Below, one piece after another: positions 1,175 through 31,512 of a stretch of 40,438 nt of DNA. The position numbers and the translations under genes are program-made. The DNA is from a virus. The notes under the pieces are model-generated. The model had not been told where the DNA came from. It searched no databases and saw nothing but the letters and a program-made list of their open reading frames with translations. Numbering within the stretch: the first letter of the stretch is position 1; each line of letters opens with the position of its first letter. Location: the IMG/VR virus record IMGVR_UViG_3300045988_112257, positions 1 to 40,438 of that record. One strand, given 5' to 3'.

Positions 1175-1498
1175 ATGGATTGGATAAGCGTTAAAGATAG
1201 GTTGCCGGAGGCAGAAAAAGAAGTTTTGCTGTTGTGCAAAACAAGGCTGAGAAGCGGTCGTACATATTGTTATTGCTGTATTGCGGTTTATGTTCCTAAG
1301 GGGATACTGCGTGAAGAATCGAGCTTTAATTGGGATTGGGAATGTTATGGCGAATACTGCGAAGAACATGATGATTACTATGTAAACGCTGGTTGGTACG
1401 AACGGATTTACAATTGGGATGACTATGCTGTGGTGGGCATTGCTGATAAAGTAACTCACTGGATGCCGCTACCAGAACCGCCGAAGGAGGAAAAGTAA
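1175..1498 (+). CDS. DUF551-like phage protein.
   Basis: The N-terminus MDWISVKDRLPE and the C-terminal THWMPLPEPP pattern are typical of DUF551 phage proteins. RBS is ggagg. Confidence 0.6.
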   Translation: MDWISVKDRLPEAEKEVLLLCKTRLRSGRTYCYCCIAVYVPKGILREESSFNWDWECYGEYCEEHDDYYVNAGWYERIYNWDDYAVVGIADKVTHWMPLPEPPKEEK

Positions 1499-1884
1499 TG
1501 AGCAAATATATATGCGCTGCTGTTGCAGCCGAAGTGATAGCAGAAAAGCACGGCATACCGCTTGGCGATTTGGTAGACACATTCAGCGATATTCCCGCCG
1601 CCGATGTTGCCCCGGTGCGGCGCGGACGGTGGATCGAAGAGGATGGCATACAGATTTGCTCAGAATGCGGCGAAGAACATGAATGGGAAGATTACAGAGC
1701 GCCGTACTGCGATACCTGCGGAGCAAAGATGAACAATGAAGGAGCTTGCCCGTATGAAGACATAAGAGATTTTATTATTGCCGATGATGCATGTAGGGAT
1801 TGCGTATATGCTCGGCCTATAAAAAAACTAAAGTACCAGCATTCTTGCCAATATCGGAACGGGCCTAATTGTAATCTAAATTAG
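1498..1884 (+). CDS. Hypothetical zinc-ribbon protein.
   Basis: The start overlaps the upstream stop (TAATG). Motif CSECG...CDTCG is present. Confidence 0.6.
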   Translation: MSKYICAAVAAEVIAEKHGIPLGDLVDTFSDIPAADVAPVRRGRWIEEDGIQICSECGEEHEWEDYRAPYCDTCGAKMNNEGACPYEDIRDFIIADDACRDCVYARPIKKLKYQHSCQYRNGPNCNLN

Positions 1885-1916
1885 TTTTGTAATGAGGGTA
1901 AAACAAAGGAGGATGC

Positions 1917-2003
1917 ATGAAAATCAACATCAACACAGGGAAAATGTGGACGCCCTTTGCCAAGGTTGAAAAAGGAGAGGTTTTTGGCATTGGCGGGGCT
2001 TAA
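1917..2003 (+). pseudogene. 28-codon truncated paralogue of the next gene (MKININTGKMWTPFAKVEKGEVFGIGGA).
   Basis: The RBS plus start aaggaggatgcATGaaaatc is nearly identical to aaggaggacgcATGaaaatc at 2011-2030. The motif KGEVF is shared. Confidence 0.35.
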
Positions 2004-2021
2004 GGATTTTAAGGAGGACGC

Positions 2022-2234
2022 ATGAAAATCGATATAAAGAAAACGGGAGCAATTTTCCGCGAGGTTGGCAAGGGAGAAGTTTTTATGATGGGGAGCGCCG
2101 TATATATGCGGACGACAGCCAAAGAGGATGAACACTTTAACGCTTGGAGCTTTACTCTCAATGATATAGCCCACATTGGGTTAGACGCAAACGTTATAAT
2201 CCTGCAAAAGGCAACGCTGGAGGTAACGATATGA
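2022..2234 (+). CDS. Hypothetical protein.
   Basis: ORF with an aaggagg RBS. Confidence 0.55.
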   Translation: MKIDIKKTGAIFREVGKGEVFMMGSAVYMRTTAKEDEHFNAWSFTLNDIAHIGLDANVIILQKATLEVTI

Positions 2235-2332
2235 CACAGTACGCAGACGAGACGCGGCTATACAGCGTCAAGCCGACGCAATCGTACCATGTGCGCCGGT
2301 GCCCAGAATTTGTGCGGGGATAGGAGGTAGAA

Positions 2333-3013
2333 ATGAAAACACTTAGATACGAGACACGGGATGCAGACGGGAATGACATTGTAAAGGATGTCGCAGTGAA
2401 GGAATTTGCGAGTGCCGATGCTGAGTTTAGATGCCACGTCTGCGGGCGGGAATGCAGCCAGGGCGTTAGAACGACGGATATTATCTCGGGCTCATTTACG
2501 GACTACGCGCTCATCGGGGATTATGTATGCAATGACTGCGCAGACCTTTTTAGCCTGTATTTTTACAGTTACATCAAAGACGCTGACGGGATAAGGCTGC
2601 TAAATGTACGGAGCATTCGGGACGAGATCACGCAGGAGCAAAAGCCGCCGTTTATGTTTGTGATAACTACATCACAGAAAAAGCATCTATTTTATCGAGC
2701 GAGAATGAATCATGTGCCGACACCATTCGCGGTGCAGCTTGAGACCGAGACGATATACACCACAACGAGCAGGATGCGGACGCTGTTTGATTTTGTTGAG
2801 TCGCTTATGACACTTGGGCAATCAAAAAAAGCGTTGGCGGATGGGGAGATGCGCTATGAAGTGATGCAAAAGGTCGGCGCGGGTGCATTTAACTACCTTC
2901 GGCGCGAGCTGAGAGCATCACGGGAGATACAAATACCAATCTACTGCGGACAAAAAAGAGATATAACAGACGAGGAGGCAATATGTTGTATAAATTCAAT
3001 ACTGACAGCGTAA
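2333..3013 (+). CDS. csf1: Csf1-like (Cas8-like) zinc-finger subunit of a type IV-B-like Cas module.
   Basis: A four-Cys finger (CHVCGREC ... CNDC) sits near the N-terminus. The protein is 226 aa and is the first gene of the operon directly upstream of the cas11/cas7/cas5-like genes. RBS is ataggagg. Confidence 0.5.
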   Translation: MKTLRYETRDADGNDIVKDVAVKEFASADAEFRCHVCGRECSQGVRTTDIISGSFTDYALIGDYVCNDCADLFSLYFYSYIKDADGIRLLNVRSIRDEITQEQKPPFMFVITTSQKKHLFYRARMNHVPTPFAVQLETETIYTTTSRMRTLFDFVESLMTLGQSKKALADGEMRYEVMQKVGAGAFNYLRRELRASREIQIPIYCGQKRDITDEEAICCINSILTA

Positions 3014-3417
3014 AACACGCGAGTGCGGCGCTACTGCTCTACGCAATGTACCGCAGCCGCAACAAAAACAGCCCGCTGAATGGGTTGGAGACATGGGACA
3101 GGTTTAACAGCTACATCCGCGGAGCGTGCCTAAAAAGCAGCACCACGGCAGAGTTTATGCAAAAATTCTGCCGCGCGGCGAAGATAGACAGCGTTAAACC
3201 ACGCTATTTGTCAACCGACGATCCTGTGCTAATGCCTGGAACCGGCGAGCTGATAATGAGCGATGCTATAAAGGACTACAGAATACCGATTATCGAGGAT
3301 AACAGTCTGCTGCGCATAATGTCGGATGAATCAATTTATCTGTGTATGCTTGTACGCGACCGCATTCAACGCGAAAAGATGGAGTATAAAGAGGAGGAGG
3401 CCGAATATGAGGACTAG
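2983..3417 (+). CDS. cas11: Cas11-like small subunit. The assignment rests on position and size.
   Basis: 144-aa protein, predicted helical, with an acidic tail. It overlaps csf1 by 31 nt and the cas7 start by 11 nt. RBS is gaggagg. Confidence 0.4.
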   Translation: MLYKFNTDSVKHASAALLLYAMYRSRNKNSPLNGLETWDRFNSYIRGACLKSSTTAEFMQKFCRAAKIDSVKPRYLSTDDPVLMPGTGELIMSDAIKDYRIPIIEDNSLLRIMSDESIYLCMLVRDRIQREKMEYKEEEAEYED

Positions 3418-4294
3418 TATAAAATACAGGCTGCTTTCGCCTGTTTCACACATTGGCGAGACCGCCAGCACCGGGAGCTATTTTCAAACCGTTCTCACGA
3501 CACAAGGGAGGCTGCCTGTAATAACCGGCAACAGCACACGCGGCCAAATCAGGGACAGCGCGGCGCTCCACCTCCTAAACACGCTCGGCATAAAAGTGGA
3601 CAAAGAGATATTCAATGTGCTTTTTTCGGGCGGTAACCTCTCGGGTACGATGCGAGATGATGTGGAACGAGCAAAACAAATTCGCAATTACTATCCGGCG
3701 GTCTCACTCCTTGGCGGCGGCATGGGGACAATGATCATGGCGGGTAAGCTGCTGGTGTCGTTTGGATACCCTGTGTGCACGGAGAGCGAGCAGTTTACGG
3801 GCATAGACAGCGCCCAATCATGGCATGATATGATTGAAGAGATTGAGTTTACACGCACCGACGATACCAAAAACGATATAAAAGCCGGCCGAATAGTTGA
3901 CATAAACGATGATTCCGGGGCGGGGACAGCATCAACGCAGATGCGCTACTCCGTACAGTATATTGCAGCGGGCACGGAGATTGTACAAAACCTTATTACA
4001 CTTGATGGCACAACGCCGCTTGAAATCGGCGCACTGTATGCAGCTATATGCGAGTGGTTTAAGGTGCCGAGGCTTGGCGGCATGGCGGCAAAAGGGTTTG
4101 GCTTGTTCGATGCTGTTGTCGGCGACCGCGATATAGTCCTTAGCGGCGGCAGGATAACGCTAAAACCACAAATTGCAGATCTCATCGATGCATATGAGAC
4201 TTTTGTCCGCGAGGAGGGCGGCGAGCATTTATCACTCCTTGCCGCACCGAAAGGAGGGAAGAAGGGTGGCAAAAAAGCCAACAACGCCGATTAA
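3407..4294 (+). CDS. csf2: Cas7-family RAMP backbone subunit (Csf2-like).
   Basis: Motifs read: IKYRLLSPVSHIG, PVITGNSTRGQIRD, LFSGGN, SLLGGGMG, and a C-terminal glycine-rich loop RLGGMAAKGFG. The start was moved from the ORF-track 3326 to the ATG at 3407, which follows gaggaggagg. Confidence 0.75.
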   Translation: MRTSIKYRLLSPVSHIGETASTGSYFQTVLTTQGRLPVITGNSTRGQIRDSAALHLLNTLGIKVDKEIFNVLFSGGNLSGTMRDDVERAKQIRNYYPAVSLLGGGMGTMIMAGKLLVSFGYPVCTESEQFTGIDSAQSWHDMIEEIEFTRTDDTKNDIKAGRIVDINDDSGAGTASTQMRYSVQYIAAGTEIVQNLITLDGTTPLEIGALYAAICEWFKVPRLGGMAAKGFGLFDAVVGDRDIVLSGGRITLKPQIADLIDAYETFVREEGGEHLSLLAAPKGGKKGGKKANNAD

Positions 4295-4973
4295 AGTCAC
4301 GGCGCACCTGCTTGACGGCAGAGTAAATACAGCAGACGGGATCATCATGCTGGACGCGATATTGTATCATGCGTGGTTTAGCAGACACAAGCCGGAGGTC
4401 TTAGAGGGCTGCGGCAGCACGCAATATGACGGATATACGGGGCTGCCGCTGCGGCAGCTCCCCGATAATAGATGGGCGGCAAGCAGAGGCGTATTTAAGA
4501 CCGAGGGCAAAAACATCGAATACATAAATAGGAGACCCAACTTTTTCGATGCGGACAAGATCGGACATCTTGACATGGAGACGGGTATAATATCGGACAG
4601 CGTAGGCGTATACCGGGCGTACCGCATACCGCGAGTTGTCAGCACTGTCAGCGATATAGAGTTTTATGCCATGGGCGACAAGGCTAAAGTGCAAGACCTA
4701 TTGACGGCGATCCAGGCCGTAGGCAAAAAGCCCGCGGCGGGATATGGCTTTGTGGCCGAATGGAGTGTAGAGGACTGTGACGAGGATTACAGCCTGTGGC
4801 ACCCCGAGTACGGACTTATGCGCCCGGTGGTGGTCGGCAGTGACGAGGCAAAGGGGCTTGAGCTTAGTACATATCCCGTTATGCAATACGGAATAAAGCC
4901 ACCTTACTGGAAACCCTGCAATATGCGTTTGTGCCATGTGCCGATTACCGCGGCGGAGAATGCGACAACATGA
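4266..4973 (+). CDS. csf3: Cas5-family RAMP subunit (Csf3-like).
   Basis: Motifs read: IKVTAHLLDG..., IMLDAILYHAW, and a glycine-rich loop AVGKKPAAGYGF. A GTG start at 4266 follows aaaggaggg. The upstream part of the ORF-track frame lies inside cas7. Confidence 0.6.
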   Translation: MAKKPTTPIKVTAHLLDGRVNTADGIIMLDAILYHAWFSRHKPEVLEGCGSTQYDGYTGLPLRQLPDNRWAASRGVFKTEGKNIEYINRRPNFFDADKIGHLDMETGIISDSVGVYRAYRIPRVVSTVSDIEFYAMGDKAKVQDLLTAIQAVGKKPAAGYGFVAEWSVEDCDEDYSLWHPEYGLMRPVVVGSDEAKGLELSTYPVMQYGIKPPYWKPCNMRLCHVPITAAENATT

Positions 4974-5743
4974 CTATTGACGATTTTGTTAAGATAGGCG
5001 CGCTCAGGTCGGGCATGCGACAATACGCCGAAAAGCGAGACAAAGCAATAAGGCTTTGCGAAGAGCAATTCCGCACGCACAAAAGACCGTATGTTGCAAT
5101 AAGCGGCGGCAAAGACAGCGTTGCTATGGCGTACATTGTGGACGCTGCGGCAAGACGCGCCGGGGCGGATTATAGATTGTGGCTGCATTGCTCGGATGCA
5201 TCGTTCCCCGGCACGGTAGAGACATGCCGCAAGGTGGCCGCGGCGGTTGGCAGAGAACTCGATGTATTTGAAAGCAAGGATTCTGCGTTTGACGCGATAG
5301 CACGTCCGCAAAAGGCTGCATTTGGGAAAAGCGGCGTATTCTTCAGCTCTGTGCGCGAGTACGCAAAGGACAAGGATTTATGCTTTGTGGGTGTTCGGGC
5401 TACGGAGAGCCGGAGACGGATGCGTGCCGCTAAAGCACATGGGCAAGTGTTTGACAGCGCATCAATGGGCGATGTTACGGTTTGCCATCCGCTCCTATGG
5501 TTTACCCTGTATGATGTCGCGGCGGCGCTACACGAGTACAATACACCAATACACCCGATATACAAAAAAATAACAATAGAGCGCGGGGAAAACCGGTGCG
5601 GTGAAGAATCGTTTATCCGGCTCGGTTATATAACGTCACGCGACCTGCTCAACAAAGGCACAGCGGTGTTTCTGCGGATAAACTACCCAGACGAGTTTAA
5701 CAGGCTTGCAGCCGCGTATCCAGAGATACGGCTATGGGTGTAG
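4970..5743 (+). CDS. cysH: PAPS-reductase-family PP-loop protein (cysH-like accessory gene of type IV-B loci).
   Basis: PP-loop motif VAISGGKDSVAMAY. The start forms an ATGA overlap with the csf3 stop. Confidence 0.75.
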   Translation: MTIDDFVKIGALRSGMRQYAEKRDKAIRLCEEQFRTHKRPYVAISGGKDSVAMAYIVDAAARRAGADYRLWLHCSDASFPGTVETCRKVAAAVGRELDVFESKDSAFDAIARPQKAAFGKSGVFFSSVREYAKDKDLCFVGVRATESRRRMRAAKAHGQVFDSASMGDVTVCHPLLWFTLYDVAAALHEYNTPIHPIYKKITIERGENRCGEESFIRLGYITSRDLLNKGTAVFLRINYPDEFNRLAAAYPEIRLWV

Positions 5744-5798
5744 CCGAGGCGGAGGGGAGGTTGAATCCCTTTTTGCGAAAAATCTGGGAGGTAGCAGG

Positions 5799-6293
5799 AT
5801 GGATAAAAGCGATAAGGAAAAAAGACAAAACGAACGCGCGGCAGTAAGGAGGCTGCTGATGTACTGGGGCAATGCAGAGCGCACGCGCACAGACAAAGAG
5901 CGGCAGCTTGTGACAGTGGACGAGGAGATAGAAAGCCAGTACGACCTTCACCCGCAAAGGCTGACGGGCTTGCCGCACGGGAGCGGGGTATCTGATGCCA
6001 CATATAATGCTGCGCTCAAGGCAACGCGCGAGATAAAACGGCTTGAGCGCAAAAAGCAGCGCCTTGAGGCCGAGCTGCAAGAGCTGAACCACCACGCGGG
6101 CATGATAGAATTTGAGGTGATGTGTCTGCCGCCGCTGGAGTGCGAGGTGATAAAGTTGAGGTATGTGGAGTACGGCGTTGCAAAAAGCGGGTACTGGGAA
6201 AAGGTGGCACAGCGGATGCACGTGTCGCAGGATTGGGCAAAGGCGCTGGAGCGGCACGGCGTGGAACGGCTGATAAATCGCATAGCCCCATAA
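5799..6293 (+). CDS. Sigma-70 region-4-like phage transcriptional regulator (ArpU/RinA-type late activator candidate).
   Basis: The C-terminal segment ECEVIKLRYVEY...W.KVAQRMHVSQDWAKALERHGVERL looks like an HTH. The gene sits just upstream of the terminase genes. The start was moved to the ATG at 5799, after gggagg. Confidence 0.45.
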   Translation: MDKSDKEKRQNERAAVRRLLMYWGNAERTRTDKERQLVTVDEEIESQYDLHPQRLTGLPHGSGVSDATYNAALKATREIKRLERKKQRLEAELQELNHHAGMIEFEVMCLPPLECEVIKLRYVEYGVAKSGYWEKVAQRMHVSQDWAKALERHGVERLINRIAP

Positions 6294-6342
6294 AAGTCAA
6301 CACGATAAAACACGATTTATATGCTATACTGATATCATCAGA

Positions 6343-6370
6343 AAAGGGCTTCCGCAGAGGGAGCCCTTTT
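6343..6370 (+). terminator. Hairpin terminator after the regulator gene.
   Basis: The arm aagggcttcc pairs with gggagccctt around the loop gcaga and is followed by tttt. Confidence 0.5.
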
Positions 6371-6383
6371 GTATGGAGCAAAT

Positions 6384-6512
6384 ATGGAACCTATAAAGTG
6401 GATACACACACCCGCCACCTGTAAAGAGTGCAAGCATTATGACAAAAACAAAAGGCGGTGCAGCCTAAGCCGGTGCAGATACCCCGCGCGAAGAGGGGGC
6501 GGCACGAGGTGA
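6384..6512 (+). CDS. Small Cys-rich ORF (42 aa, ...CKECKHYDKNKRRCSLSRC...).
   Basis: Translated by hand. Its stop overlaps a GTG at 6509 that opens the next frame. Confidence 0.25.
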   Translation: MEPIKWIHTPATCKECKHYDKNKRRCSLSRCRYPARRGGGTR

Positions 6513-6745
6513 ATTTAAGGCGTGTAGCACATAGATTGCAGCAGGCTTTGTGTGCAAAGGGGATAAGGGTAAAAATAAATCAAGTACAAAGCTACTCTGA
6601 AAAGGCTGAAAGGATGGTGAATAAATACGTGATAATCCAGACTGAAAAGCAGATGGATGGCAGAAATAAAAATACCACGCTACTTGAATCCTATCAGCTT
6701 GCAGAAGTAGTAAAGCTACTTGCAGGACTGTACAAGGATGCCTAA
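6509..6745 (+). CDS. Hypothetical protein upstream of terS.
   Basis: This is the distal part of ORF 6458..6745. The start is uncertain (GTG 6509 after gagg, or ATG 6458). Confidence 0.35.
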   Translation: MNLRRVAHRLQQALCAKGIRVKINQVQSYSEKAERMVNKYVIIQTEKQMDGRNKNTTLLESYQLAEVVKLLAGLYKDA

Positions 6746-7136
6746 AACCGACAAGCTAACCCCCAAGCAAAAAGCCTTTGCAGATTACTATATACAGTCT
6801 GGCAATGCAGCAGAAGCCGCACGCAAGGCGGGATACTCTGAGAAAACCGCGCGTTTTTCTGGCGCAGAAAACCTTACAAAGGCCAACATTCAGGCATATA
6901 TCTCTGAGCGTATGCAGTCAGATGAGAAAAAGCGTATAGCAGATGCAGATGAGGTAATGAGGTTTTACAGCGCCGTTATGCGCGGTGAAGTTAAAGACAG
7001 TTTCGGGCTTGATGCAGCTTTGGCAGACCGATTAAAAGCCGGTGATGCGCTGATGAAGCGCTTTATTGCAATGCAGGGCAAGGCGGCAGAGAATGAATGT
7101 GAAGACCTTACGCCGCTGGCGAATATGCTGAAATAG
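6738..7136 (+). CDS. terS: Terminase small subunit.
   Basis: LTPKQKAFADYYIQSGNAAEAARKAGYSEKTA is the typical Terminase_2 HTH N-terminus. The gene lies directly upstream of terL. Confidence 0.85.
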   Translation: MPKTDKLTPKQKAFADYYIQSGNAAEAARKAGYSEKTARFSGAENLTKANIQAYISERMQSDEKKRIADADEVMRFYSAVMRGEVKDSFGLDAALADRLKAGDALMKRFIAMQGKAAENECEDLTPLANMLK

Positions 7137-7149
7137 GAGGGCGGGACGC

Positions 7150-8472
7150 ATGAAAAAGACCGCCACCATACCGTGGCAGCCGTTGAGCGAGAAGCATAAG
7201 GCATACATTCTGCGCGGCATGAACGCCCGAATGTGCGTAGCTGAGGGCGCAATCAGAAGCGGAAAGACCATCGACCATTGCATAATGGCGGCGGCATATT
7301 TAGAAACGTGTCCTGACAAGATACATTTAGCGTCAGGCAGCACCATAGCCAACGCGAAGCTTAATATTGGGGTGTGCAACGGGTTTGGCCTTGAAAACCT
7401 TTTCCGTGGGCGTTGCCGCTGGGGGAAGTACAAGGAGAATCAAGCGCTTTTCCTTGCCACTCAGACAGGGGAAAAGATTGTCGTTTTCACGGGCGGGAAG
7501 AACTCAGACAGCTATAAGCGGATACTGGGCAATTCTTACGGCCTGTGGATAGCCACGGAAATAAACGAGCATTATGACAGTGACGATAGCCGCGAAAGCT
7601 TTGTAAAAGTGGCTAATGGCCGTCAGCTTGCAGCCGTGCGGCCTTATACACTATGGGACATGAACCCTTGCAGTCCGCGCCACCCGATATACACGGAGTA
7701 CATAGACAAGTACCGCGACAACGGCATGAAAGGCTATGTATACGAGCATTTCACAATACGGGATAACCTATCGATAAGTGAGGAACGGCAGGCGGAAATA
7801 ACCGCGCAGTATGACCCCAAAACCGTATGGTACAGGCGTGACATACTGGGCGAGAGATGCACGGCGGAGGGGCTTGTGTACCCGAGCTTTGCGGACACGC
7901 CCGAAAGGTATATCATCGATGCGCCGCCTGCTATTCAGTATGCCAATATCGGCGTGGACTTTGGCGGGACTAAATCCGGCCACGCCTTCACGCTAACGGG
8001 CTTCACGCACGGGTATAAAGAAATTGTGGTTCTGGACGAATATTACCATGATAACGCTAAGGATGGCCGCTTTAACCCTGACCAGCTTAACGCGGCTTTT
8101 ATAGACTTTGTACGGAGGGCACAGCAGAAATACAGGGTTGCAATCGCCCGATGCGACAGCGCGGAGCAGACGCTAATTGAGGGCTTACGCTCAGCCGCAA
8201 GCAAGGCGGGCGTTCCGATAGGCATTGAAAACGCGATAAAGGGCGCGATAAACGACCGCATAGCCTTTTACAACTCGTTGATGGCGCAGGAGCGGTTTAA
8301 GATTATGAGCCATTGCAAAGCGACAATAGAGGCGTTGCAAACGGCCATATACGATGCGGACAAGATAGACGATGAACGCCTCGACAACGGCACAACAAAC
8401 ATAGACAGTCTTGACAGTATGGAATACTCAACGGAGGTTGAGCAGTCGTCGATTATGTACATAAGGAGATAG
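7150..8472 (+). CDS. terL: Terminase large subunit (PBSX/headful-type).
   Basis: Walker-A-like motif GAIRSGKT. Size is 440 aa, and it sits between terS and the portal gene. Confidence 0.85.
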   Translation: MKKTATIPWQPLSEKHKAYILRGMNARMCVAEGAIRSGKTIDHCIMAAAYLETCPDKIHLASGSTIANAKLNIGVCNGFGLENLFRGRCRWGKYKENQALFLATQTGEKIVVFTGGKNSDSYKRILGNSYGLWIATEINEHYDSDDSRESFVKVANGRQLAAVRPYTLWDMNPCSPRHPIYTEYIDKYRDNGMKGYVYEHFTIRDNLSISEERQAEITAQYDPKTVWYRRDILGERCTAEGLVYPSFADTPERYIIDAPPAIQYANIGVDFGGTKSGHAFTLTGFTHGYKEIVVLDEYYHDNAKDGRFNPDQLNAAFIDFVRRAQQKYRVAIARCDSAEQTLIEGLRSAASKAGVPIGIENAIKGAINDRIAFYNSLMAQERFKIMSHCKATIEALQTAIYDADKIDDERLDNGTTNIDSLDSMEYSTEVEQSSIMYIRR

Positions 8473-26840: not shown

Positions 26841-27080
26841 GTGGTGGACAAAAATATTTTGCAGACCCTATCCCGTGCGGAGTGGGAAGGGATAATCTAC
26901 CAGCGGATTTTCAGCGAGCGTGACCGCTGGCTTGTGGCGCGGCATTTGCTGGATGGTGTACCGTATGACAGGCTTACAGCGGAGTATCAGGCGCGGTACA
27001 CAGATGCGCCGCTGGAGTATGACCAAATCCGCCGCCGATACAAGGCAGCGGAGAGAACCCTTATAAAATATGCCCCCTAA
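26841..27080 (+). CDS. Small helical, possibly sigma-r4/HTH-like protein.
   Basis: GTG-initiated ORF. The strong RBS ggaggtga at 26809-26816 serves an out-of-frame ATG at 26824 instead, so the start is uncertain. Confidence 0.4.
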   Translation: MVDKNILQTLSRAEWEGIIYQRIFSERDRWLVARHLLDGVPYDRLTAEYQARYTDAPLEYDQIRRRYKAAERTLIKYAP

Positions 27081-27099
27081 TGGGGGCTTTTTTATTTTT
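27072..27099 (+). terminator. Rho-independent terminator.
   Basis: gccccc-taat-gggggc followed by ttttttattttt. The stop codon lies in the loop. Confidence 0.75.
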
Positions 27100-27105
27100 G
27101 GGGGC

Positions 27106-27134
27106 TTGACATATGCTTGATGCTGTGGTATTTT
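27106..27134 (+). promoter_or_regulatory. Promoter of the mini-array transcript.
   Basis: TTGACA (27106-27111), a 17-nt spacer, then an extended -10 TGgTATTTT (27126-27134). Repeat 1 begins 7 nt downstream. Confidence 0.6.
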
Positions 27135-27140
27135 AATAAT

Positions 27141-27231
27141 GTCATCCGGCAACGGATGAGGATTGAAATATTTAACTTTTCGTTTTTGCGTCTGGGACGC
27201 ATGCCACCCGCTTGCGGGTGTGGATTGAAAC
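27141..27231 (+). CRISPR. Mini-array or solitary-repeat unit. Two type I-C-like repeat hairpins (27141-27169 and 27203-27231) flank one 33-nt spacer (27170-27202).
   Basis: R1 is GT-CATCCG-GCAA-CGGATG-AGGATTGAAAT. R2 is GC-CACCCG-CTTG-CGGGTG-TGGATTGAAAC. Both share the same architecture: a 6-bp stem, a 4-nt loop and an 11-nt handle of the ..GGATTGAAA[T/C] type known from I-C repeats. The stem carries a compensatory T>C / A>G change. The two repeats match at only 20 of 29 positions. Confidence 0.55.
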
Positions 27232-27267
27232 ATTATTTATCTTTGGTGGGGTTTCAAACCAAAGAAA

Positions 27268-27296
27268 AAGATGCACCGCAGTGTATCTTTTTTTTC
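27268..27296. terminator. Bidirectional rho-independent terminator, closing both the mini-array transcript and the convergent gene 27307..27576.
   Basis: aagatgcac-cgca-gtgtatctt (9-bp stem with one G-U pair), followed by a T-run on the + strand and tttttcttt on the - strand. Confidence 0.7.
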
Positions 27297-27306
27297 TTTC
27301 CCCCGG

Positions 27307-27576
27307 TTATTTCACCCAACCCCAAAGATTTATCCAGTTTTTGGGACAAATTATCCGGTACATATAGGGCGGATTCCTCCAGTTGAGCCAGTCGAATATC
27401 CAGGCATCACCCCATTCATTATCAGCCGCCAGTGCATCCAGCTCCGGTATCCGCTCGTCCGATACGCAGTACACCCCGTAGCCCTCGTCCGTGATGTAGT
27501 GGCGTAAAAACTCCATGTGGTACTTTTCGGCTAAGGCCATCAGCGTGGCCTTGGTTCTCGGCATCCTTGCTTCCAT
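27307..27576 (-). CDS. Hypothetical small Trp-rich protein (89 aa).
   Basis: Second gene of the leftward unit driven by the 27982 promoter. Confidence 0.55.
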   Translation of the reverse strand: MEARMPRTKATLMALAEKYHMEFLRHYITDEGYGVYCVSDERIPELDALAADNEWGDAWIFDWLNWRNPPYMYRIICPKNWINLWGWVK

Positions 27577-27623
27577 TTTTTCTCTCCTTTGGGGCGGTGC
27601 TGCCGCCCCTTACCCTCTGTGTC

Positions 27624-27908
27624 TTAGCGGTTCAGCGTCTCGGCGGCGTGCTTGGCTACTGCCGCATCGTAGGCGGATTCGCAGTCCTCGTAGCTGTCAA
27701 AGTCTATATCCAGCTCATAGCACAGCGCCTCGACAAGATTCGGCTCCCACTCGGCATCGTCGTCTATGGCCGCTATAAGCTCATCTGCCGTAGCCGCGCG
27801 GACCTCGTTGCGGGGGAAGTCTTTTTCTGCTACCCGCCACATGGGGATAAAATCTTCGCCATACTGCTCGCGGGTCTCGGTGCCTTCAATCGCTTTGTAA
27901 ACCTTCAT
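27624..27908 (-). CDS. Small highly acidic protein (94 aa). Candidate anti-defence or DNA-mimic protein.
   Basis: Hand count gives 25 D/E versus 9 K/R. It is the first gene after a consensus promoter, and gggag lies upstream of the ATG. Confidence 0.6.
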   Translation of the reverse strand: MKVYKAIEGTETREQYGEDFIPMWRVAEKDFPRNEVRAATADELIAAIDDDAEWEPNLVEALCYELDIDFDSYEDCESAYDAAVAKHAAETLNR

Positions 27909-28019
27909 TTTTTTAACTCCCTCTGGGGCTTCAGCCCCTTGCTTTATCTTATGGCTATATTATACAGCAGATTTTATACTTTGTCAAGCGTTTTGCCTGA
28001 CAAAATTAAAAATATTTTT
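27909..28019 (-). promoter_or_regulatory. Consensus promoter, operator-like inverted repeat and conserved leader (copy A).
   Basis: On the minus strand: TTGACA (27987-27982), 17 nt, TATAAT (27964-27959). The palindrome TTGTCA-N11-TGACAA (27981-28003) overlaps the -35. The leader contains the hairpin ggggctgaagcccc. About 110 nt are shared with 29127-29238. Confidence 0.75.
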
Positions 28020-28022
28020 GCC

Positions 28023-28502
28023 CTACATATATATGCCGAAAACCTCTGCCAATGTGGCCTTGTGCTTTTGGGGGATTGGCCGCCTGCCACTCGTCCAGTC
28101 AGATACGGCCTGTCGGCTCATGCCACAAACATTGCCGACTTGCTCCAACGTTAGCCCCTTTTCGCGCATCTTTTCCGCAAGATAGTCGGGGTCGTTAAGG
28201 ATGGGGGCTGCCTTGCCGCGATAAAAAGCCAAGTCCCACATACATTGCTGCTGCGCGCTTATGACCTTATCACCATCGTCAAAATCTTCGGGGGCAAGCG
28301 GCTGGATCGCGTCGCTTATGGCGCGATCAAGGGGGGGCGTCATTTTGCGGGCGGCCATCAGCCACCGCATAGACATTGCAAAGCCGTGTGCCGGGCGGCG
28401 TTGCGCCTCCGCGAATAGCGCCGGCTCGCTAAGCTTATCGGGGCTGACTTGCCACGCCAGCCCGTAGATATACCCAAGTGTTTTTACTGCTTCATCTCGC
28501 AT
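28023..28502 (-). CDS. HTH (XRE-type) DNA-binding protein. Aca-like candidate regulator.
   Basis: C-terminal LTLEQVGNVCGMSRQAVSDWTSGRRPIP helix-turn-helix. It is the second gene of the unit driven by the 29201 promoter. Confidence 0.65.
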   Translation of the reverse strand: MRDEAVKTLGYIYGLAWQVSPDKLSEPALFAEAQRRPAHGFAMSMRWLMAARKMTPPLDRAISDAIQPLAPEDFDDGDKVISAQQQCMWDLAFYRGKAAPILNDPDYLAEKMREKGLTLEQVGNVCGMSRQAVSDWTSGRRPIPQKHKATLAEVFGIYM

Positions 28503-28517
28503 TTTTTCTCTCCTTTT

Positions 28518-29126
28518 TTATTTTAATAACATGGGCAGCAGCGCGTCGCGATTTGCCATTATGTACTCCCAGCACTGCCGTATCATAGCGGGCTGTATGG
28601 CTTCTCTGCTGCCGAATACCTCTATTTGCCGCCCGCTGAGTAGCTCTATGCCGACAAGGCATCTCTTGGCGCGGCGTTCCTCCGGCGGCGTTGTGCCGTA
28701 GTCTCGCGCATATATGCCGTAGGCATCCACAAATTCAACCGGGGTTATGTTGGCCAAGCCGGACTCTATGTTATTGATTTCGTATTCGGCGGGTTCCTTG
28801 GCTTCTTCGTTTGCGGTTTCTTCCGTTTTCTCAGTTTCGGGCTCTTCGGTTTCGGTGCGGGGGACGTAGACCACGATGGTCTTTGTTTCTTTGTTGTAGC
28901 TGCCGCGCTCGGTCTTGCATTCGCCATAGTTTTCTTTGTATTCGCGGTAGGACATTTCTACGGCTTCGCAACCTTCGGCGTTCTCGGCGTTTATGTGGGC
29001 TTCGTAGCAATCGGGGCAGTCGCCGTAAGTCTCATACCACTTGATTTTGCGTTCGCGTTGTTCGTTCGTGCCAAACAGCTCTATCGTAGCAGTGTGACCG
29101 CAGGAAAATGTTACATCGTACTTCAT
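28518..29126 (-). CDS. Hypothetical protein with an N-terminal Cys/His cluster and an acidic linker (202 aa).
   Basis: Contains FSCGH...GDCPDCYEAH and TETEEPETEKTEE. It is the first gene after the consensus promoter. Confidence 0.6.
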   Translation of the reverse strand: MKYDVTFSCGHTATIELFGTNEQRERKIKWYETYGDCPDCYEAHINAENAEGCEAVEMSYREYKENYGECKTERGSYNKETKTIVVYVPRTETEEPETEKTEETANEEAKEPAEYEINNIESGLANITPVEFVDAYGIYARDYGTTPPEERRAKRCLVGIELLSGRQIEVFGSREAIQPAMIRQCWEYIMANRDALLPMLLK

Positions 29127-29238
29127 AATTTTTAACTCCCTTCGGGGCTTGTCGCCCTTGCTTTATCTTATGGCCTTATTATAGCATGCAATTCCATTCT
29201 TGTCAAGCATTTTGCCTGACAAAATTAAAAAATATTTT
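29127..29238 (-). promoter_or_regulatory. Consensus promoter, operator-like inverted repeat and conserved leader (copy B).
   Basis: On the minus strand: TTGACA (29206-29201), 17 nt, TATAAT (29183-29178). TTGTCA-N11-TGACAA lies at 29200-29222. The leader and upstream blocks are near-identical to copy A, while the -35/-10 spacer differs. Confidence 0.75.
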
Positions 29239-29330
29239 TCCCCCGCTAAATGCCCGCAAAATTCCCTCCTCGCGCACAGGGCGCGGGGCTTAATTTTTGC
29301 GAAAATTAAGGCATAAGGAGGCGAGAAAAA

Positions 29331-29762
29331 ATGTGGAATCCTAACCCCTTTTTTGGCGGCTATCAGCAGCCCCAGCAGTACCAGCAGCGCACCGAAATTG
29401 CCCAAGTCAATGGCGAGGGCGGGGCGAAGGCGTACAACCTTGCGCCCAATAGCAGCATCCTGTTGCTGGACACCACCGCGCCCATAGTCTGGCACAAGTG
29501 TACTGACAGCGCGGGGTATCCTACATTAACCCCGTACACCATCACACCGTATCAGCCTGCGCCGCCCGTAGACATAAATGACCTCGCGGCGAGAATATCA
29601 AAATTGGAGGACAAATTAAATGCCGAATCCCATACTGCAAGCAATGAAAACTGGAAGCCAGCAGACCCCGCAAATATCCCCGCAGCTAATCGCCCAGGCG
29701 AAAAGCATGATGGGAATGCCCGCGCAAATGCAGCAGGTAATGCGGATGCTCGGCGGGCGTGA
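29331..29762 (+). CDS. Hypothetical Q/P-rich protein.
   Basis: RBS aaggagg. The N-terminus reads MWNPNPFFGGYQQPQQYQQ, followed by a conserved-looking core VNGEGGAKAYNLAPNSSILLLD. The last 143 nt overlap the next ORF, so the true 3' end is uncertain. Confidence 0.5.
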   Translation: MWNPNPFFGGYQQPQQYQQRTEIAQVNGEGGAKAYNLAPNSSILLLDTTAPIVWHKCTDSAGYPTLTPYTITPYQPAPPVDINDLAARISKLEDKLNAESHTASNENWKPADPANIPAANRPGEKHDGNARANAAGNADARRA

Positions 29763-29838
29763 CCCCCAGCAGATGTTTTATAGTCTGTGCCAGCAGCGCG
29801 GCATAGACCCTGAAAGCATCTTATCACAGATACGATAA
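29620..29838 (+). CDS. Hypothetical small helical protein (72 aa).
   Basis: ggagg lies 8 nt upstream of the ATG. Confidence 0.45.
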   Translation: MPNPILQAMKTGSQQTPQISPQLIAQAKSMMGMPAQMQQVMRMLGGRDPQQMFYSLCQQRGIDPESILSQIR

Positions 29839-29890
29839 ATCACGCGCGATTTATATACCAAAAAAATAAAATTATGAAGGAGAAAAGACA

Positions 29891-30517
29891 ATGGATAATG
29901 TACCCTCTTTGGCGGATATTGCCGCCGTAACGGACAAAAACGACGGCCTTGGCGGTAGCATGGGCGGAGGTTTTTGGATTTTCGCTCTTATCGTGCTTTT
30001 GGCTATGATGGGCGGAGGCTTTGGCGGCTGGGGCAATCGCGGCAACGGTGACTACGGCCAGTACGCGACCGCAGCGACGCAGCAGGAAATCCTTTTCGGC
30101 CAGCATTTTGGCCAGCTTAATGACCGCTTGACCAACATCGGCAACGGCATATGCAGCCTTGGCTACGATATGCAGGGCAACATCGGCCAGCTTGGGAAGG
30201 AAATGGCGCTGGCGCAGAACGGCACGAATATGGCCGTGATGCAGTCCGCGAACGGCATACAGTCCCAGATGGCGGACTGCTGCTGCGCCGTACAGCGTGG
30301 CATGGATGCCATCAACGCCAATATCGACGCAAAATTCGCGGCGCTCGAAAAGGCGCAGCTTGAGCAGCGCATAGCCCAGCTTGAGCAGGCTAATAATCAG
30401 CTTTTCGTCCGCGAGCAGCTGACGGGCGTGGTACGCTACCCCAACGGCTACACTTACAACGCCGGAAATAGCCCGTTTTGCGGCTCCGGCTGCGGCTGCG
30501 GCAATAGCTGCTGCTAA
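29891..30517 (+). CDS. Membrane protein with Gly-rich segments, a coiled coil and a Cys-rich C-terminus.
   Basis: GGGFWIFALIVLLAMMGGGFGGWGNRGNG, then DCCCAV, then AQLEQRIAQLEQ, and a C-terminal FCGSGCGCGNSCC. Confidence 0.6.
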   Translation: MDNVPSLADIAAVTDKNDGLGGSMGGGFWIFALIVLLAMMGGGFGGWGNRGNGDYGQYATAATQQEILFGQHFGQLNDRLTNIGNGICSLGYDMQGNIGQLGKEMALAQNGTNMAVMQSANGIQSQMADCCCAVQRGMDAINANIDAKFAALEKAQLEQRIAQLEQANNQLFVREQLTGVVRYPNGYTYNAGNSPFCGSGCGCGNSCC

Positions 30518-30591
30518 CGCATGACACCATCCGGCTTTGCCGTGACTATCGGGGCGGCTTGACCGCCCCTTGATTATGAAAGGAGAAAATT

Positions 30592-31002
30592 ATGGCTTGC
30601 AAGAATATATGCCGGCTTTGCCCCCACCTCATTATATCCCAGTCCGTGACATTTGTGGCGGGTACTGGGCTCATTATCAATCTGCCCGCAGGCGTGTACG
30701 CCAACGGCGAGAAGTATTGCATCGTCGTGGCGCAGAGCATACCCGATACCACCACTATATCCGCGCCCGTATATATCACCATCGGCACAGGCACGGCGCA
30801 GTATCCCCTGATAAACCGCTGCTGCGCACAGGTGACCGCGTGCAGCATGCGTAAGCGCACCAAATACAGCACCGTGGTATCCACCACCCCCACGGGCGGG
30901 ACTTTTAAGCTGCTCGGCAACCCGCCTTGTGCACCCAATAACGACCTTACGGGGCTGACTGGCGGAGCCGTCGCCACCGTGGCGGAGGCGGCTAAAAAAT
31001 GA
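30592..31002 (+). CDS. Cys-rich beta-rich protein of unknown function.
   Basis: MACKNICRLCP at the N-terminus and NRCCAQVTAC internally. RBS aaaggag. Confidence 0.55.
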   Translation: MACKNICRLCPHLIISQSVTFVAGTGLIINLPAGVYANGEKYCIVVAQSIPDTTTISAPVYITIGTGTAQYPLINRCCAQVTACSMRKRTKYSTVVSTTPTGGTFKLLGNPPCAPNNDLTGLTGGAVATVAEAAKK

Positions 31003-31307
31003 AGCTAATTAATGACCTGTCCGACCAGATTTGCGAAGAAATCGCAGACGCTGAAAAGTATGCTAAGTGGGCGCTTGCGGTCAAGGACGATATGCCGACC
31101 GTAGCGCAGACCCTGTACACCATATCGGGGCAGGAGCTGACCCACGCATCCATGCTGCACGACCTTGTAGCCCGCGCTATATCGGACTACAAGGCGAAGC
31201 ATGGCGACCCTCCCGCCGATATGCTGACGCTGTACAAATATTTGCACGGCAAGCAGATAGACAAGACGGAACGTGTAAAAAGGTATCAGGAAATGTATAA
31301 GGCGTAA
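30999..31307 (+). CDS. Small helical-bundle (ferritin-like?) protein.
   Basis: ATGA overlap with the upstream gene. Helical heptad-like sequence EEIADAEKYAKWA...GQELTHASMLHDL. Confidence 0.45.
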   Translation: MKLINDLSDQICEEIADAEKYAKWALAVKDDMPTVAQTLYTISGQELTHASMLHDLVARAISDYKAKHGDPPADMLTLYKYLHGKQIDKTERVKRYQEMYKA

Positions 31308-31326
31308 TCTATTTACACCAACCCCC

Positions 31327-31346
31327 GGCAACTTTGCGGCAACTTT
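31327..31346. repeat. Pair of GGCAACTTT units with 11-nt spacing. Candidate integrase arm-type sites, left pair.
   Basis: cGGCAACTTTgcGGCAACTTTtt. The same arrangement recurs at 31546-31565. Confidence 0.45.
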
Positions 31347-31463
31347 TTATTGCGCGTCCGTGCTAACGGCTGTTTGTGAAAATGCCTAAATATCTATGGT
31401 TTGTGGTACAATTACGTACTTTTGTGGGCAAAAAATCCAAGTAGCTGCCGGATACCAAAGAAG

Positions 31464-31495: not shown

Positions 31496-31512
31496 AGTAT
31501 TTTAGGCGTTTT

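What the first reader, a model, noticed from the sequence alone, without database searches (positions are those of the whole stretch)
2333..5743. CRISPR-less type IV-B-like Cas effector operon (csf1-cas11-csf2-csf3) with a cysH-like PP-loop gene, carried by a temperate siphovirus
**Seen in the sequence**
- Five co-directional genes have overlapping stops and starts (31, 11, 29 and 4 nt), each behind a GGAGG-type RBS.
- Gene 3 (3407..4294) has Cas7/RAMP hallmarks: IKYRLLSPVSHIG, PVITGNSTRGQIRD, SLLGGGMG and a C-terminal glycine-rich loop RLGGMAAKGFG.
- Gene 4 (4266..4973) is a second RAMP with LDAILYHAW and the G-rich loop GKKPAAGYGF, which is Cas5/Csf3-like.
- Gene 1 has a CxxC...CxxC finger as in Csf1.
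- Gene 2 is a 144-aa protein in the cas11 position.
- Gene 5 has the PP-loop SGGKDS of the PAPS-reductase/CysH family.
- No cas6, cas1/2, helicase or nuclease gene and no adjacent array are present.

**Established knowledge**
- This gene content and order defines subtype IV-B in the current CRISPR-Cas classification.
- The biological role of IV-B, and that of its cysH-like partner, is still unresolved.
- IV-B is reported mainly from plasmid-like elements.

**Inference**
- A compact version sitting in the early/middle region of a Firmicutes-type temperate phage, just upstream of the late activator and terminase, suggests a phage-beneficial role.
- Possible roles are sequestration or hijacking of host crRNAs, inter-element competition, or RNA-guided regulation.
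Basis: partly seen in the sequence, partly recalled or inferred. Interest (0 to 1): 0.88.

Follow-up and report, generated by a model that had tools for sequence, protein, structure and literature searches.

The report
Phage-borne type IV-B Cas cassette
A temperate phage of gut Clostridia carries an intact, array-less type IV-B CRISPR-Cas effector operon with its usual CysH-like partner enzyme; this kind of system is already known from plasmids and some phages, and its function is still unknown.

Summary
Window 2333-5743 encodes csf1, cas11, csf2 (cas7), csf3 (cas5) and a CysH-like PP-loop enzyme. The stop/start overlaps are 31, 11, 29 and 4 nt. PADLOC type IV models match the four Cas genes at E 1e-33 to 1e-51. 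A Csf2 model finds solved type IV Csf2 chains first. Gene 5 aligns over its full length with the CysH-like gene of a Rhodococcus IV-B plasmid. It keeps SGGKDS and has no conserved cysteine.

The whole ~40.4-kb circular phage genome has no CRISPR array, Cas6, Cas1/2, helicase or nuclease partner. The cassette closes the early operon, just upstream of the late regulator and terminase. All five genes are under purifying selection.

More than 400 protein clusters at about 60% identity come from phage-sized contigs, and the few genome hits are Clostridia MAGs. IV-B on prophages and free phages is already in the literature, so this is a new member of a known kind. Function is still inferred.

Side lead: in sister loci the CysH slot holds a radical SAM enzyme, and every member of that enzyme family I checked lies next to csf3.

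The parts
2333..3013 (+). csf1, the type IV large subunit (226 aa) with a four-cysteine zinc finger
   Evidence: PADLOC Csf1_0_IV E 2.5e-33. NCBIfam TIGR03114 E 2e-13, below its curated cut-off. C34, C37, C66 and C69 are invariant in 8 divergent loci. GGAGG RBS.
2983..3417 (+). cas11, the type IV small subunit (144 aa)
   Evidence: PADLOC typeIV_Cas11 models E 8.8e-35 and 9e-35 over the full length. The 31-nt overlap with csf1 is conserved in L011, L016, L019 and L020.
3407..4294 (+). csf2, the Cas7 backbone subunit (295 aa)
   Evidence: PADLOC Csf2_0_IV E 6.6e-51. phrog_22746 E 2.7e-75. PDB sequence hits: Cas7c 11fs 5e-13 and IV-B Csf2 7jhy 4e-4. AF2 model pLDDT 76; Foldseek ranks 1-31 are all type IV Csf2 chains, followed by Csm3.
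4266..4973 (+). csf3, the Cas5 subunit (235 aa, GTG start)
   Evidence: PADLOC Csf3_0_IV E 8.2e-42. TIGR03116 E 7.8e-16. PDB Csf3 8rc3_F E 6e-5. The G-rich loop VGKKxAxGYG is conserved. The 29-nt overlap with csf2 is conserved in other loci.
4970..5743 (+). Cas-associated CysH-like PP-loop ATP-pyrophosphatase-family protein (257 aa)
   Evidence: Pfam PAPS_reduct E 8.1e-8, above its cut-off. SGGKDS is invariant and no cysteine is invariant in 30 homologues. hhalign to the Rhodococcus pREL1 IV-B cysH: prob 97.6, E 2.8e-12, extending to the C-terminus. hhalign to Skermania phage SPI1 orf44: prob 97.1. AF2 pLDDT 90.7; the fold is that of the adenine-nucleotide alpha-hydrolases. ATGA overlap with csf3.

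Best explanation
**Identity (shown).** This is an intact type IV-B CRISPR-Cas effector cassette, csf1-cas11-csf2-csf3, with the subtype's usual CysH-like partner. It sits at the end of the early/middle rightward operon of a ~40.4-kb temperate siphovirus-like phage of Clostridia. The five genes are linked by overlapping stops and starts, which suits production of one multi-subunit complex.

**Mode of action (inferred from the solved Mycobacterium IV-B complex and the IV-A complexes).**
- Csf2 polymerises on an RNA of about 55-60 nt.
- Cas11 forms the minor filament.
- Csf3 and Csf1 cap the complex.
- The phage supplies no guide, no Cas6, no helicase and no nuclease. The complex must therefore act by binding rather than cutting, on RNA it finds in the cell: host crRNAs or other small RNAs, or phage transcripts.
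- The CysH-like protein keeps the ATP-binding PP-loop but has no redox cysteine. It is most likely an ATP alpha-hydrolase or adenylylating enzyme that acts on, or is recruited by, the complex.

**Biological role (inferred).** The cassette sits inside the lytic operon and not in the lysogeny module. The role I think most likely is counter-defence or conflict with other mobile elements during lytic development.

**My probabilities**
- Identity: about 0.97.
- RNA-bound, non-nucleolytic complex: about 0.7.
- Counter-defence or inter-element role in the lytic cycle: about 0.4.
For: - Profile matches to all four type IV subunits.
- Structural match of Csf2 to type IV Csf2 chains.
- Full-length homology of gene 5 to a plasmid IV-B CysH-like protein, and loss of any conserved cysteine.
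- The PP-loop fold.
- No array, Cas6, helicase or nuclease partner anywhere in the circular genome.
- Purifying selection on all five genes.
- The same cassette in about 20 independent phage or prophage loci, always close to the late regulator or terminase.
- The cassette lies in one co-directional gene run that starts at cro (34974) and continues to the late regulator (5799-6293) and terS/terL. In the stretch scanned (1400-7200) there is no promoter-like site just upstream of csf1, and the only terminator-like + strand sites lie inside csf2 and terS.
- Properties of the IV-B complex come from PMC7937560. CasCysH features come from PMC8175902.
Against: - No RNA partner, target or activity can be read from sequence.
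- The Mycobacterium complex bound heterogeneous RNA and did not enrich co-expressed crRNAs (PMC7937560). This weakens the crRNA-sponge and trans-loading ideas.
- IV-B correlates negatively with other CRISPR systems in host genomes (PMC7038947).
- Expression timing is inferred from gene order only.
- NCBIfam csf1/2/3 scores (50-58 bits) are far below the curated equivalog cut-offs (130-140), so these proteins are distant from the IV-A-type references.
Confidence: 0.55

Rival explanations
1. The Csf filament is mainly a scaffold or targeting device for a nucleic-acid-modifying enzyme. The gene after csf3 is the real effector, and the complex directs ATP-dependent (CysH-like or QueC-like) or radical-SAM chemistry onto bound RNA or DNA. 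This could mark phage nucleic acid before packaging or inactivate host RNAs.
For: - The slot after csf3 is always an enzyme, but not always the same one. Three CysH-like subfamilies share under 30% identity while the Csf proteins stay 50-70% identical.
- In L036 and L039 the slot holds an orthologous ~418-aa radical SAM protein whose start overlaps the csf3 stop.
- In L017 it holds a QueC-like PP-loop ATPase.
- In 7 of 7 contigs looked up, the radical SAM family lies next to a Csf3 gene.
- The closest solved folds to the CysH-like model include the tRNA-base-modifying PP-loop enzymes TtuA, NcsA and TilS.
Against: - Gene adjacency in a phage region that commonly holds DNA-modification genes may be coincidental for L017.
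- No substrate is known.
- Fold matches are weak (TM 0.45-0.57) and generic for the superfamily.
- The sample is only about 21 loci plus 7 look-ups.
Confidence: 0.25
2. The cassette is a lysogen-protecting or superinfection-exclusion system. It is expressed from the prophage, loads host crRNAs in trans, and silences competing phages or plasmids in the manner of type IV-A.
For: - Type IV-A systems silence targets without cutting and serve plasmid competition (PMC7038947, PMC12669027).
- The phage is temperate.
- Trans use of foreign crRNAs has long been proposed for IV-B (PMC8175902).
Against: - The cassette lies in the rightward lytic operon, far from the lysogeny module (26868-34850, minus strand). 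It has no promoter-like site just upstream of csf1 and no flanking terminator-like site.
- It has no helicase, which IV-A needs.
- The Mycobacterium complex did not load I-E crRNAs (PMC7937560).
Confidence: 0.12
3. The cassette is a phage-internal regulator. The complex binds phage transcripts or DNA to time the switch from early to late expression or to packaging.
For: The cassette sits immediately upstream of the late regulator and terminase in the window. It lies within a few kb of terminase genes in L005, L011, L032, L034, L041 and L042.
Against: - Most related phages lack the cassette. Only 17 IMG/VR contigs were found by pattern scan and 1 of 50,697 deposited phage records holds a relative. 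It is therefore accessory, not core.
- No conserved non-coding RNA or repeat lies near it.
Confidence: 0.06
4. The cassette is a decaying relic, and gene 5 is an ordinary phage PAPS-reductase auxiliary metabolic gene that merely lies next to it.
For: - The Pfam RAMPs score falls just under its cut-off (21.8 against 22.1 bits).
- Gene 5 hits phrog_2302, 'PAPS reductase'.
- In L020 the cysH-like gene is split by a frameshift.
Against: - dN/dS is 0-0.25.
- The motifs are intact and the zinc-finger cysteines invariant.
- The overlap lengths are conserved.
- Gene 5 has no conserved redox cysteine and is homologous end to end with plasmid IV-B CysH-like proteins.
Confidence: 0.02

Closest known systems
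Type IV-B Csf complex of Mycobacterium sp. JS623 megaplasmid (PDB 7JHY; PMC7937560)
   Same: It has the same four subunits plus a cysH-like neighbour. It also lacks an array, Cas6, a helicase and a nuclease. The Csf2 fold matches (Foldseek E 9e-10).
   Different: Sequence similarity is very low (phmmer E 4e-4). The carrier is a plasmid, not a phage. The putative catalytic Asp42 loop of JS623 Csf2 corresponds here to an invariant SHIGE(T/V)(A/S)STGSYF loop with His15 and Glu18 but no Asp.
Actinobacterial plasmid IV-B cassettes, e.g. Rhodococcus erythropolis pREL1 (NC_007491)
   Same: The gene order is csf1-cas11-csf2-csf3 with similar protein sizes. The CysH-like protein is homologous over its full length.
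   Different: On the plasmid the cysH-like gene is divergently transcribed upstream of csf1. In the phage clade it is co-directional and downstream, with a start that overlaps the csf3 stop. Csf2 identity is only 27%.
Skermania phage SPI1 orf40-44 (KR011061), a cultured actinophage
   Same: It has the same five-gene order, csf1-cas11-csf2-csf3-cysH-like, in a phage genome. It is the only record among 50,697 deposited phage records with a Csf2 relative.
   Different: All five genes are annotated as hypothetical. Csf2 identity is 31%. The host is actinobacterial. The cassette lies next to lysis and nucleotide-metabolism genes rather than the terminase.
Fuxivirus (Bathyarchaeia virus) type IV-B locus (PMC10848311)
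   Same: It is a virus-encoded IV-B with a CysH-like protein of the Cas-associated branch.
   Different: Fuxivirus has a two-repeat mini-array. None is found here or in 15 related loci.
Type IV-A systems (P. oleovorans, K. pneumoniae; PDB 8RC3, 7XFZ)
   Same: The Csf2 and Csf3 folds are the best structural and sequence matches among solved chains. Action is nuclease-free.
   Different: IV-A has DinG, Cas6/Csf5 and an array, and lacks Cas11 and CysH.
PDB 11fs/11hc/11hd 'Cas7c' and 'Cas5c' chains (probably a type IV-C complex; I could not find the paper)
   Same: These give the best PDB sequence match to Csf2 (E 5.3e-13).
   Different: The large subunit here is a 226-aa Csf1, not a Cas10-like HD protein. 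The Cas5c match is insignificant (E 0.66).

Membership tests
[quoted passage not shown] | Csf1 signature large subunit with a zinc finger | tested here: met
   PADLOC Csf1_0_IV E 2.5e-33. Four invariant Cys.
[quoted passage not shown] | Csf2 (Cas7-like RAMP backbone) | tested here: met
   PADLOC E 6.6e-51. Foldseek ranks 1-31 are type IV Csf2 chains.
[quoted passage not shown] | Csf3 (Cas5-like RAMP) | tested here: met
   PADLOC E 8.2e-42. PDB Csf3 E 6e-5. Conserved G-rich loop.
[quoted passage not shown] | Scores above the NCBIfam equivalog cut-offs for csf1, csf2 and csf3 | tested here: inconclusive
   E-values are 2e-13 to 8e-16, but the bit scores of 50-58 are below the cut-offs of 130-140. 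These are trusted cut-offs of particular reference models, not a defining trait of the type. They show that the proteins are distant from those references.
Subtype IV-B | Cas11 small subunit present | tested here: met
   PADLOC typeIV_Cas11 E 9e-35.
Subtype IV-B | No DinG (IV-A/E) or RecD (IV-D) helicase | tested here: met
   All ORFs of 400 aa or more in the circular genome are terminase, portal, tape-measure or tail genes. The tested ORFs give no helicase hit.
Subtype IV-B | No Cas10-like HD large subunit (IV-C) | tested here: met
   The large subunit is a 226-aa Csf1.
Subtype IV-B | No Cas6 and no CRISPR array | tested here: met
   Repeat scans, TRF and Rfam including the CRISPR-DR models were negative. 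No Cas6 hit in PADLOC among Cas6-sized ORFs.
Subtype IV-B | Adjacent cysH-like gene | tested here: met
   Gene at 4970-5743. Pfam PAPS_reduct 32.9 bits against a cut-off of 22.5. 4-nt overlap with csf3.
Cas-associated CysH-like (CasCysH; PMC8175902) | PP-motif SGGxDS/T instead of the CysH P-loop | tested here: met
   SGGKDS is invariant in 30 homologues.
Cas-associated CysH-like (CasCysH; PMC8175902) | Loss of the C-terminal catalytic cysteine | tested here: met
   No invariant or nearly invariant Cys in A3. The window's Cys in NRCGEES is Q, L, N and others in homologues.
Cas-associated CysH-like (CasCysH; PMC8175902) | Homology to the CysH-like proteins of canonical IV-B loci | tested here: met
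   hhalign prob 97.6, E 2.8e-12 to pREL1, including the C-terminal ...P.IR.(F/W)V tail. Prob 97.1 to SPI1. Prob 95.4 to the Rhodovastum plasmid.
Cas-associated CysH-like (CasCysH; PMC8175902) | Placement inside the Cas-associated clade of a CysH phylogeny | not tested
   No tree was built with bona fide and viral CysH references.
Subtype IV-B | Assembly of a Csf2/Cas11 filament on RNA | not testable with these tools
   This needs expression, pull-down and RNA sequencing.
Temperate siphovirus-like phage | Integrase, repressor/Cro switch, terminase, portal, capsid, tape measure, no sheath | tested here: met
   PHROG hits. Cro-like ORF at 34974-35180. No ORF over 210 aa between capsid and tape measure. 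A 64-nt terminal overlap indicates a closed circle.

The most novel reading that the evidence does not exclude
In phages, type IV-B-like Csf filaments may be modular carriers for interchangeable nucleic-acid-modifying enzymes. The enzymes seen in the slot after csf3 are a CysH-like PP-loop ATPase, a QueC-like ATPase or a B12-type radical SAM enzyme. The system would then be an RNA-scaffolded or RNA-guided chemical modification machine, not a binding-only 'sponge'. The radical-SAM-linked cassettes would be an undescribed type IV variant.
Probability: 0.15. Interest if true: 0.85.

Novelty: new member of a known kind. Interest (0 to 1): 0.4.

Why it matters
**Why the finding itself matters**
- Type IV-B is the least understood CRISPR-Cas subtype. 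No target, guide or activity is known, and the role of its CysH-like partner is open.
- This window adds little that is new in kind. It does show that a well-conserved, purifying-selected IV-B clade is widespread in temperate phages of gut Clostridia.
- In these phages the cassette sits inside the lytic operon next to the packaging genes. That argues for a role during phage development rather than in plasmid maintenance.

**Two practical leads**
- A cultured phage-host pair, Skermania phage SPI1 on S. piniformis, carries the same five genes without annotation. It could be used for genetics.
- A radical SAM family takes the CysH place next to csf3. This points to the accessory enzyme as the key to function.

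Tried and rejected
**Arrays and repeats**
- I looked for an array, mini-array or solitary repeat in the window and in 15 related loci. None was found.
- The 28-nt repeat at 1906 and 2011 is the RBS and start of a small ORF and its truncated duplicate, not CRISPR repeats.
- The 55-nt repeat at 35364 and 35471 is a coding duplication (YNNRRCGED.RIVVLK) in early small ORFs.
- The 47-nt repeat upstream of csf1 in L038 lies inside an upstream protein-coding ORF that continues into csf1's start.

**RNA partner**
- I looked for a conserved non-coding gap that could encode an RNA partner. The cassettes are tightly packed, and any gaps hold inserted ORFs (HAD-like and others).

**Gene 5**
- I tested the Cys in NRCGEES as an ECGLH-like catalytic cysteine. 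It is not conserved.
- I tested whether gene 5 is a generic viral PAPS reductase. This is rejected by full-length homology to plasmid IV-B CysH-like proteins.

**Searches that returned nothing useful**
- DNA-level search of the cassette against deposited phages: no match.
- Csf1 and Cas11 against PDB sequences: nothing significant.
- Literature searches for a IV-B function after 2022, and for the paper behind PDB 11fs: nothing.

Full report
**1. Observation**

The stop/start overlaps are 31, 11, 29 and 4 nt. Four starts have a GGAGG-type ribosome-binding site. The fifth has only GGAG plus an ATGA overlap. All quoted peptide motifs are present.

**2. Identity of the genes**

PADLOC's type IV models match all four Cas genes over nearly their full length:
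- Csf1_0_IV, E 2.5e-33
- Cas11, E 9e-35
- Csf2_0_IV, E 6.6e-51
- Csf3_0_IV, E 8.2e-42

NCBIfam csf1, csf2 and csf3 match at E 2e-13 to 8e-16, but the scores are far below the curated equivalog cut-offs. The proteins are therefore distant from the references those equivalog models represent. Pfam RAMPs falls just under its threshold, and PAPS_reduct passes for gene 5. PHROGs holds the Csf2 and Csf3 families as 'unknown function' (phrog_22746 and phrog_34599).

Against solved structures:
- Csf2 matches 'Cas7c' of 11fs (E 5e-13) and the Mycobacterium IV-B Csf2 7jhy (E 4e-4) by sequence.
- Csf3 matches IV-A Csf3.
- An AlphaFold model of Csf2 (pLDDT 76) finds type IV Csf2 chains at Foldseek ranks 1-31, including 7jhy, and then type III Csm3.
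- The four zinc-finger cysteines of Csf1 and the glycine-rich loop of Csf3 are invariant across eight divergent loci.

**3. Subtype**

The features that separate IV-B from the other subtypes are met:
- Cas11 is present.
- The large subunit is a small Csf1, not a Cas10-like HD protein.
- A cysH-like gene is adjacent.
- There is no helicase, Cas6, Cas1/2 or array. Repeat, tandem-repeat, tRNA and Rfam searches, including a permissive Rfam scan, found nothing relevant.
- Every ORF of 400 aa or more is a packaging or tail gene, and Cas6-sized ORFs have no PADLOC Cas hit.

**4. Genome context**

The last 64 nt of the window equal the first 64 nt. The contig is therefore a closed circle of about 40,374 bp. 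Its genes include:
- integrase (31513-32655, minus strand)
- HTH repressor (34527-34850, minus strand) facing a Cro-like gene (34974-35180)
- Gam, NinB, a replication initiator and a RusA-like resolvase
- terS, terL, portal, MuF-like protein, major capsid, tape measure and tail fibre

No sheath-sized ORF lies between capsid and tape measure. The cassette is the last block of the rightward early operon. It lies directly before a phrog_36 transcriptional regulator (5799-6293) and the terminase. Within the stretch scanned (1400-7200) no promoter-like site lies just upstream of csf1, and the terminator-like + strand sites are inside csf2 (3738) and terS (7047). Timing of expression is inferred from this layout and was not measured.

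**5. Relatives**

- Csf2 has more than 414 relatives at 90%-identity clustering, most at about 60% identity. Many come from 35-55-kb contigs, and one is named 'CRISPR type IV/AFERR-associated protein [Caudoviricetes sp.]'.
- Among 1.84 billion 50%-identity representatives there are 772 hits at E<=1e-3 and 30 at E<=1e-30.
- Pattern scans found 17 IMG/VR contigs and 6 species-representative genomes. All six genomes are Clostridia MAGs (Ruminococcus, Subdoligranulum, Ruminococcaceae).
- In about 20 independent loci the order csf1-cas11-csf2-csf3 is invariant, and the 31- and 29-nt overlaps recur.
- The cassette is always within a few kb of terminase genes, although the phages have different structural modules.
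- Against three 93-98%-identical relatives, dN/dS is 0-0.25 for all five genes.
- In PLSDB, 52 plasmids hold a Csf2 relative. All are below 35% identity, 39 are from Rhodococcus, and no Firmicutes genus appears among the ten organism names the output lists (one more is unnamed).
- Among 50,697 deposited phage records only Skermania phage SPI1 has a relative. Its orf40-44 are an unannotated csf1-cas11-csf2-csf3-cysH-like cassette.

**6. The CysH-like gene**

- In 30 homologues SGGKDS is invariant and no cysteine is conserved. The window's Cys in NRCGEES is variable. This matches the published description of Cas-associated CysH: a PP-motif and loss of the catalytic cysteine (PMC8175902).
- Profile comparison aligns it end to end with the CysH-like protein of Rhodococcus pREL1 (prob 97.6, E 2.8e-12). 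The alignment includes a C-terminal helical extension and a terminal ...P.IR.(F/W)V tail that lie outside the Pfam domain.
- The AlphaFold model (pLDDT 90.7) has the adenine-nucleotide alpha-hydrolase fold. The nearest solved structures are TtuA, the PAPS domain of FAD synthase, CysH, NcsA and TilS. All are at modest TM-scores of 0.45-0.57.
- It is therefore best read as an ATP-pyrophosphatase-type enzyme, not a sulfonucleotide reductase.

**7. Accessory plasticity (side finding)**

- The Csf proteins stay 50-70% identical across loci, but the enzyme after csf3 changes.
- Seventeen of 21 loci have a CysH-like protein. These fall into three subfamilies that share under 30% identity.
- L017 has a QueC-like PP-loop ATPase after an unassigned 246-aa protein.
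- L036 and L039 have an orthologous ~418-aa B12-binding-type radical SAM protein whose start overlaps the csf3 stop.
- That radical SAM family has about 41 clusters. In all seven members whose contigs I looked up, it lies next to a Csf3 gene. The architectures vary, and some include Cas6f or a UvrD helicase.
- I found no mention of this association in the papers I could search.

**8. Mechanism**

Shown:
- The gene content and intact motifs.
- Overlapping stops and starts throughout the cassette.
- Purifying selection.
- The absence of a guide source, Cas6, helicase and nuclease.

Inferred from the solved IV-B and IV-A complexes (PMC7937560; PDB 8RC3, 7XFZ):
- A Csf2/Cas11 double filament forms on an RNA of roughly 55-60 nt and is capped by Csf3 and Csf1.
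- It acts by binding.

Inferred from position: the cassette is used during lytic development. The most likely role is counter-defence or conflict with other elements, and the CysH-like enzyme probably carries out ATP-dependent chemistry on or near the complex.

The crRNA-sponge and trans-guide ideas are weakened by two published results. The Mycobacterium complex did not enrich crRNAs (PMC7937560). IV-B also correlates negatively with other CRISPR systems (PMC7038947). The interchangeable enzymes in sister loci make a 'targeted modification' model a serious rival.

One further detail concerns the flexible loop that corresponds to the Csm3/Csf2 catalytic loop. In this clade it is the invariant sequence SHIGE(T/V)(A/S)STGSYF, with His15 and Glu18 but no aspartate. 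RNase activity can be neither assumed nor excluded.

**9. Comparison and novelty**

IV-B loci on plasmids 'or predicted prophages' were described in 2018 (bioRxiv 10.1101/270033). IV-B in prophages of Firmicutes was noted in 2020 (PMC7038947), 'some free phages' in 2022 (PMC8730458), and an archaeal virus IV-B in 2024 (PMC10848311). The 2025 classification still lists IV-B as array-less and without an effector nuclease (PMC12669027).

The window is therefore a new member of a known kind. It differs from the plasmid archetype in three ways. The cysH-like gene is co-directional and downstream with a start overlapping the csf3 stop, whereas on pREL1 it is divergent and upstream. Sequence identity is below 35%. 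The cassette sits in a phage lytic operon.

I score interest at 0.4. The annotation is solid and useful, and the side leads are real. The central claim would not surprise a specialist, and the hosts are uncultured anaerobes.

**10. Dead ends**

These are listed under 'tried and rejected'. In brief:
- The repeats near csf1 and in the early region are coding duplications.
- No conserved non-coding partner was found.
- There is no DNA-level similarity to deposited phages.
- I found no paper on IV-B function after 2022, and none for PDB 11fs.

Noticed in passing
L036 8793-10052; L039 3642-4898; L041-L046 (gene at 5001-62xx in each): A family of ~410-460-aa B12-binding-type radical SAM proteins (about 41 clusters) takes the CysH position after csf3. 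In 7 of 7 contigs looked up it lies directly next to a Csf3 gene. The architectures vary and include csf1-cas11-csf2-csf3-rSAM, rSAM-Csf3, forms with Cas6f, and forms with a UvrD helicase. I found no description of this association in the searchable papers.
   Followed up: partly
L005 12265-12999; L011 11536-12309; window 4970-5743: The CysH-like partner falls into three subfamilies that share under 30% identity, while the four Csf proteins of the same loci stay 50-70% identical. This suggests either swapping or much faster evolution of the accessory enzyme.
   Followed up: partly
L017 9483-10868 (Ruminococcus MAG CACZCM010000044): In this locus csf3 is followed by a 246-aa protein with no family hit and then a QueC-like PP-loop ATPase (PF06508, E 1e-15). 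There is no PAPS-reductase-family gene.
   Followed up: partly
L021 3714-7347 (Skermania phage SPI1, KR011061, orf40-44): A cultured actinophage carries a complete csf1-cas11-csf2-csf3-cysH-like cassette. All five genes are annotated as hypothetical proteins. It is the only record among 50,697 deposited phage records with a Csf2 relative.
   Followed up: yes
window 40375-40438 and 1-64; gene 40227 -> junction -> 461: The window ends overlap by exactly 64 nt, so the contig is a closed circle of about 40,374 bp. A pentapeptide-repeat protein gene (A(D/N)L(x)x repeats; C-terminal part matches phrog_9562) spans the junction in the early operon.
   Followed up: partly
window 32764-33870 (-): A DnaQ-like DEDDh exonuclease lies next to the integrase. 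It hits PADLOC 'DEDDh, CAS-associated' (E 5e-41) and the candidate defence system PDC-S48 (E 5e-39). It may be a lysogeny-module moron.
   Followed up: no
window 35364-35418 and 35471-35525: A 55-nt direct repeat (93% identical, 107 nt apart) lies in the early region. It encodes YNNRRCGED(Y/R)RIVVLK in two overlapping small ORFs in different frames. It is a partial gene duplication, not an array.
   Followed up: yes
window 1906-1933 and 2011-2038: A 28-nt repeat upstream of csf1 is the RBS and start of the 70-aa ORF 2022-2234 and of a truncated 28-aa duplicate (1918-2004).
   Followed up: yes
window 3419-4264 compared with L001, L002 and L004: Among near-identical relatives, dS of csf2 (about 0.26) is two to four times that of the four neighbouring genes (0.06-0.13). 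This hints at recombination inside the cassette.
   Followed up: no
L040 3645-8526; L043 2324-8956: These are more distant type IV-like variants in viral or metagenomic contigs. L040 has a Cas6f/Csy4-like gene and a TGT-like gene between a csf1-like gene and cas11, with an integrase downstream. L043 has rSAM-Csf3 followed by a UvrD-family helicase next to an IS110 transposase.
   Followed up: no
L020 4266-5464: The cysH-like gene of this Clostridia MAG is split into two ORFs by a frameshift. This is either an assembly error or a pseudogene.
   Followed up: no
PDB 11fs, 11hc, 11hd: Chains named Cas7c and Cas5c, probably from a type IV-C complex, give the best solved-structure sequence match to this Csf2 (E 5e-13). 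That is better than the solved IV-B Csf2. I could not find the associated paper.
   Followed up: partly
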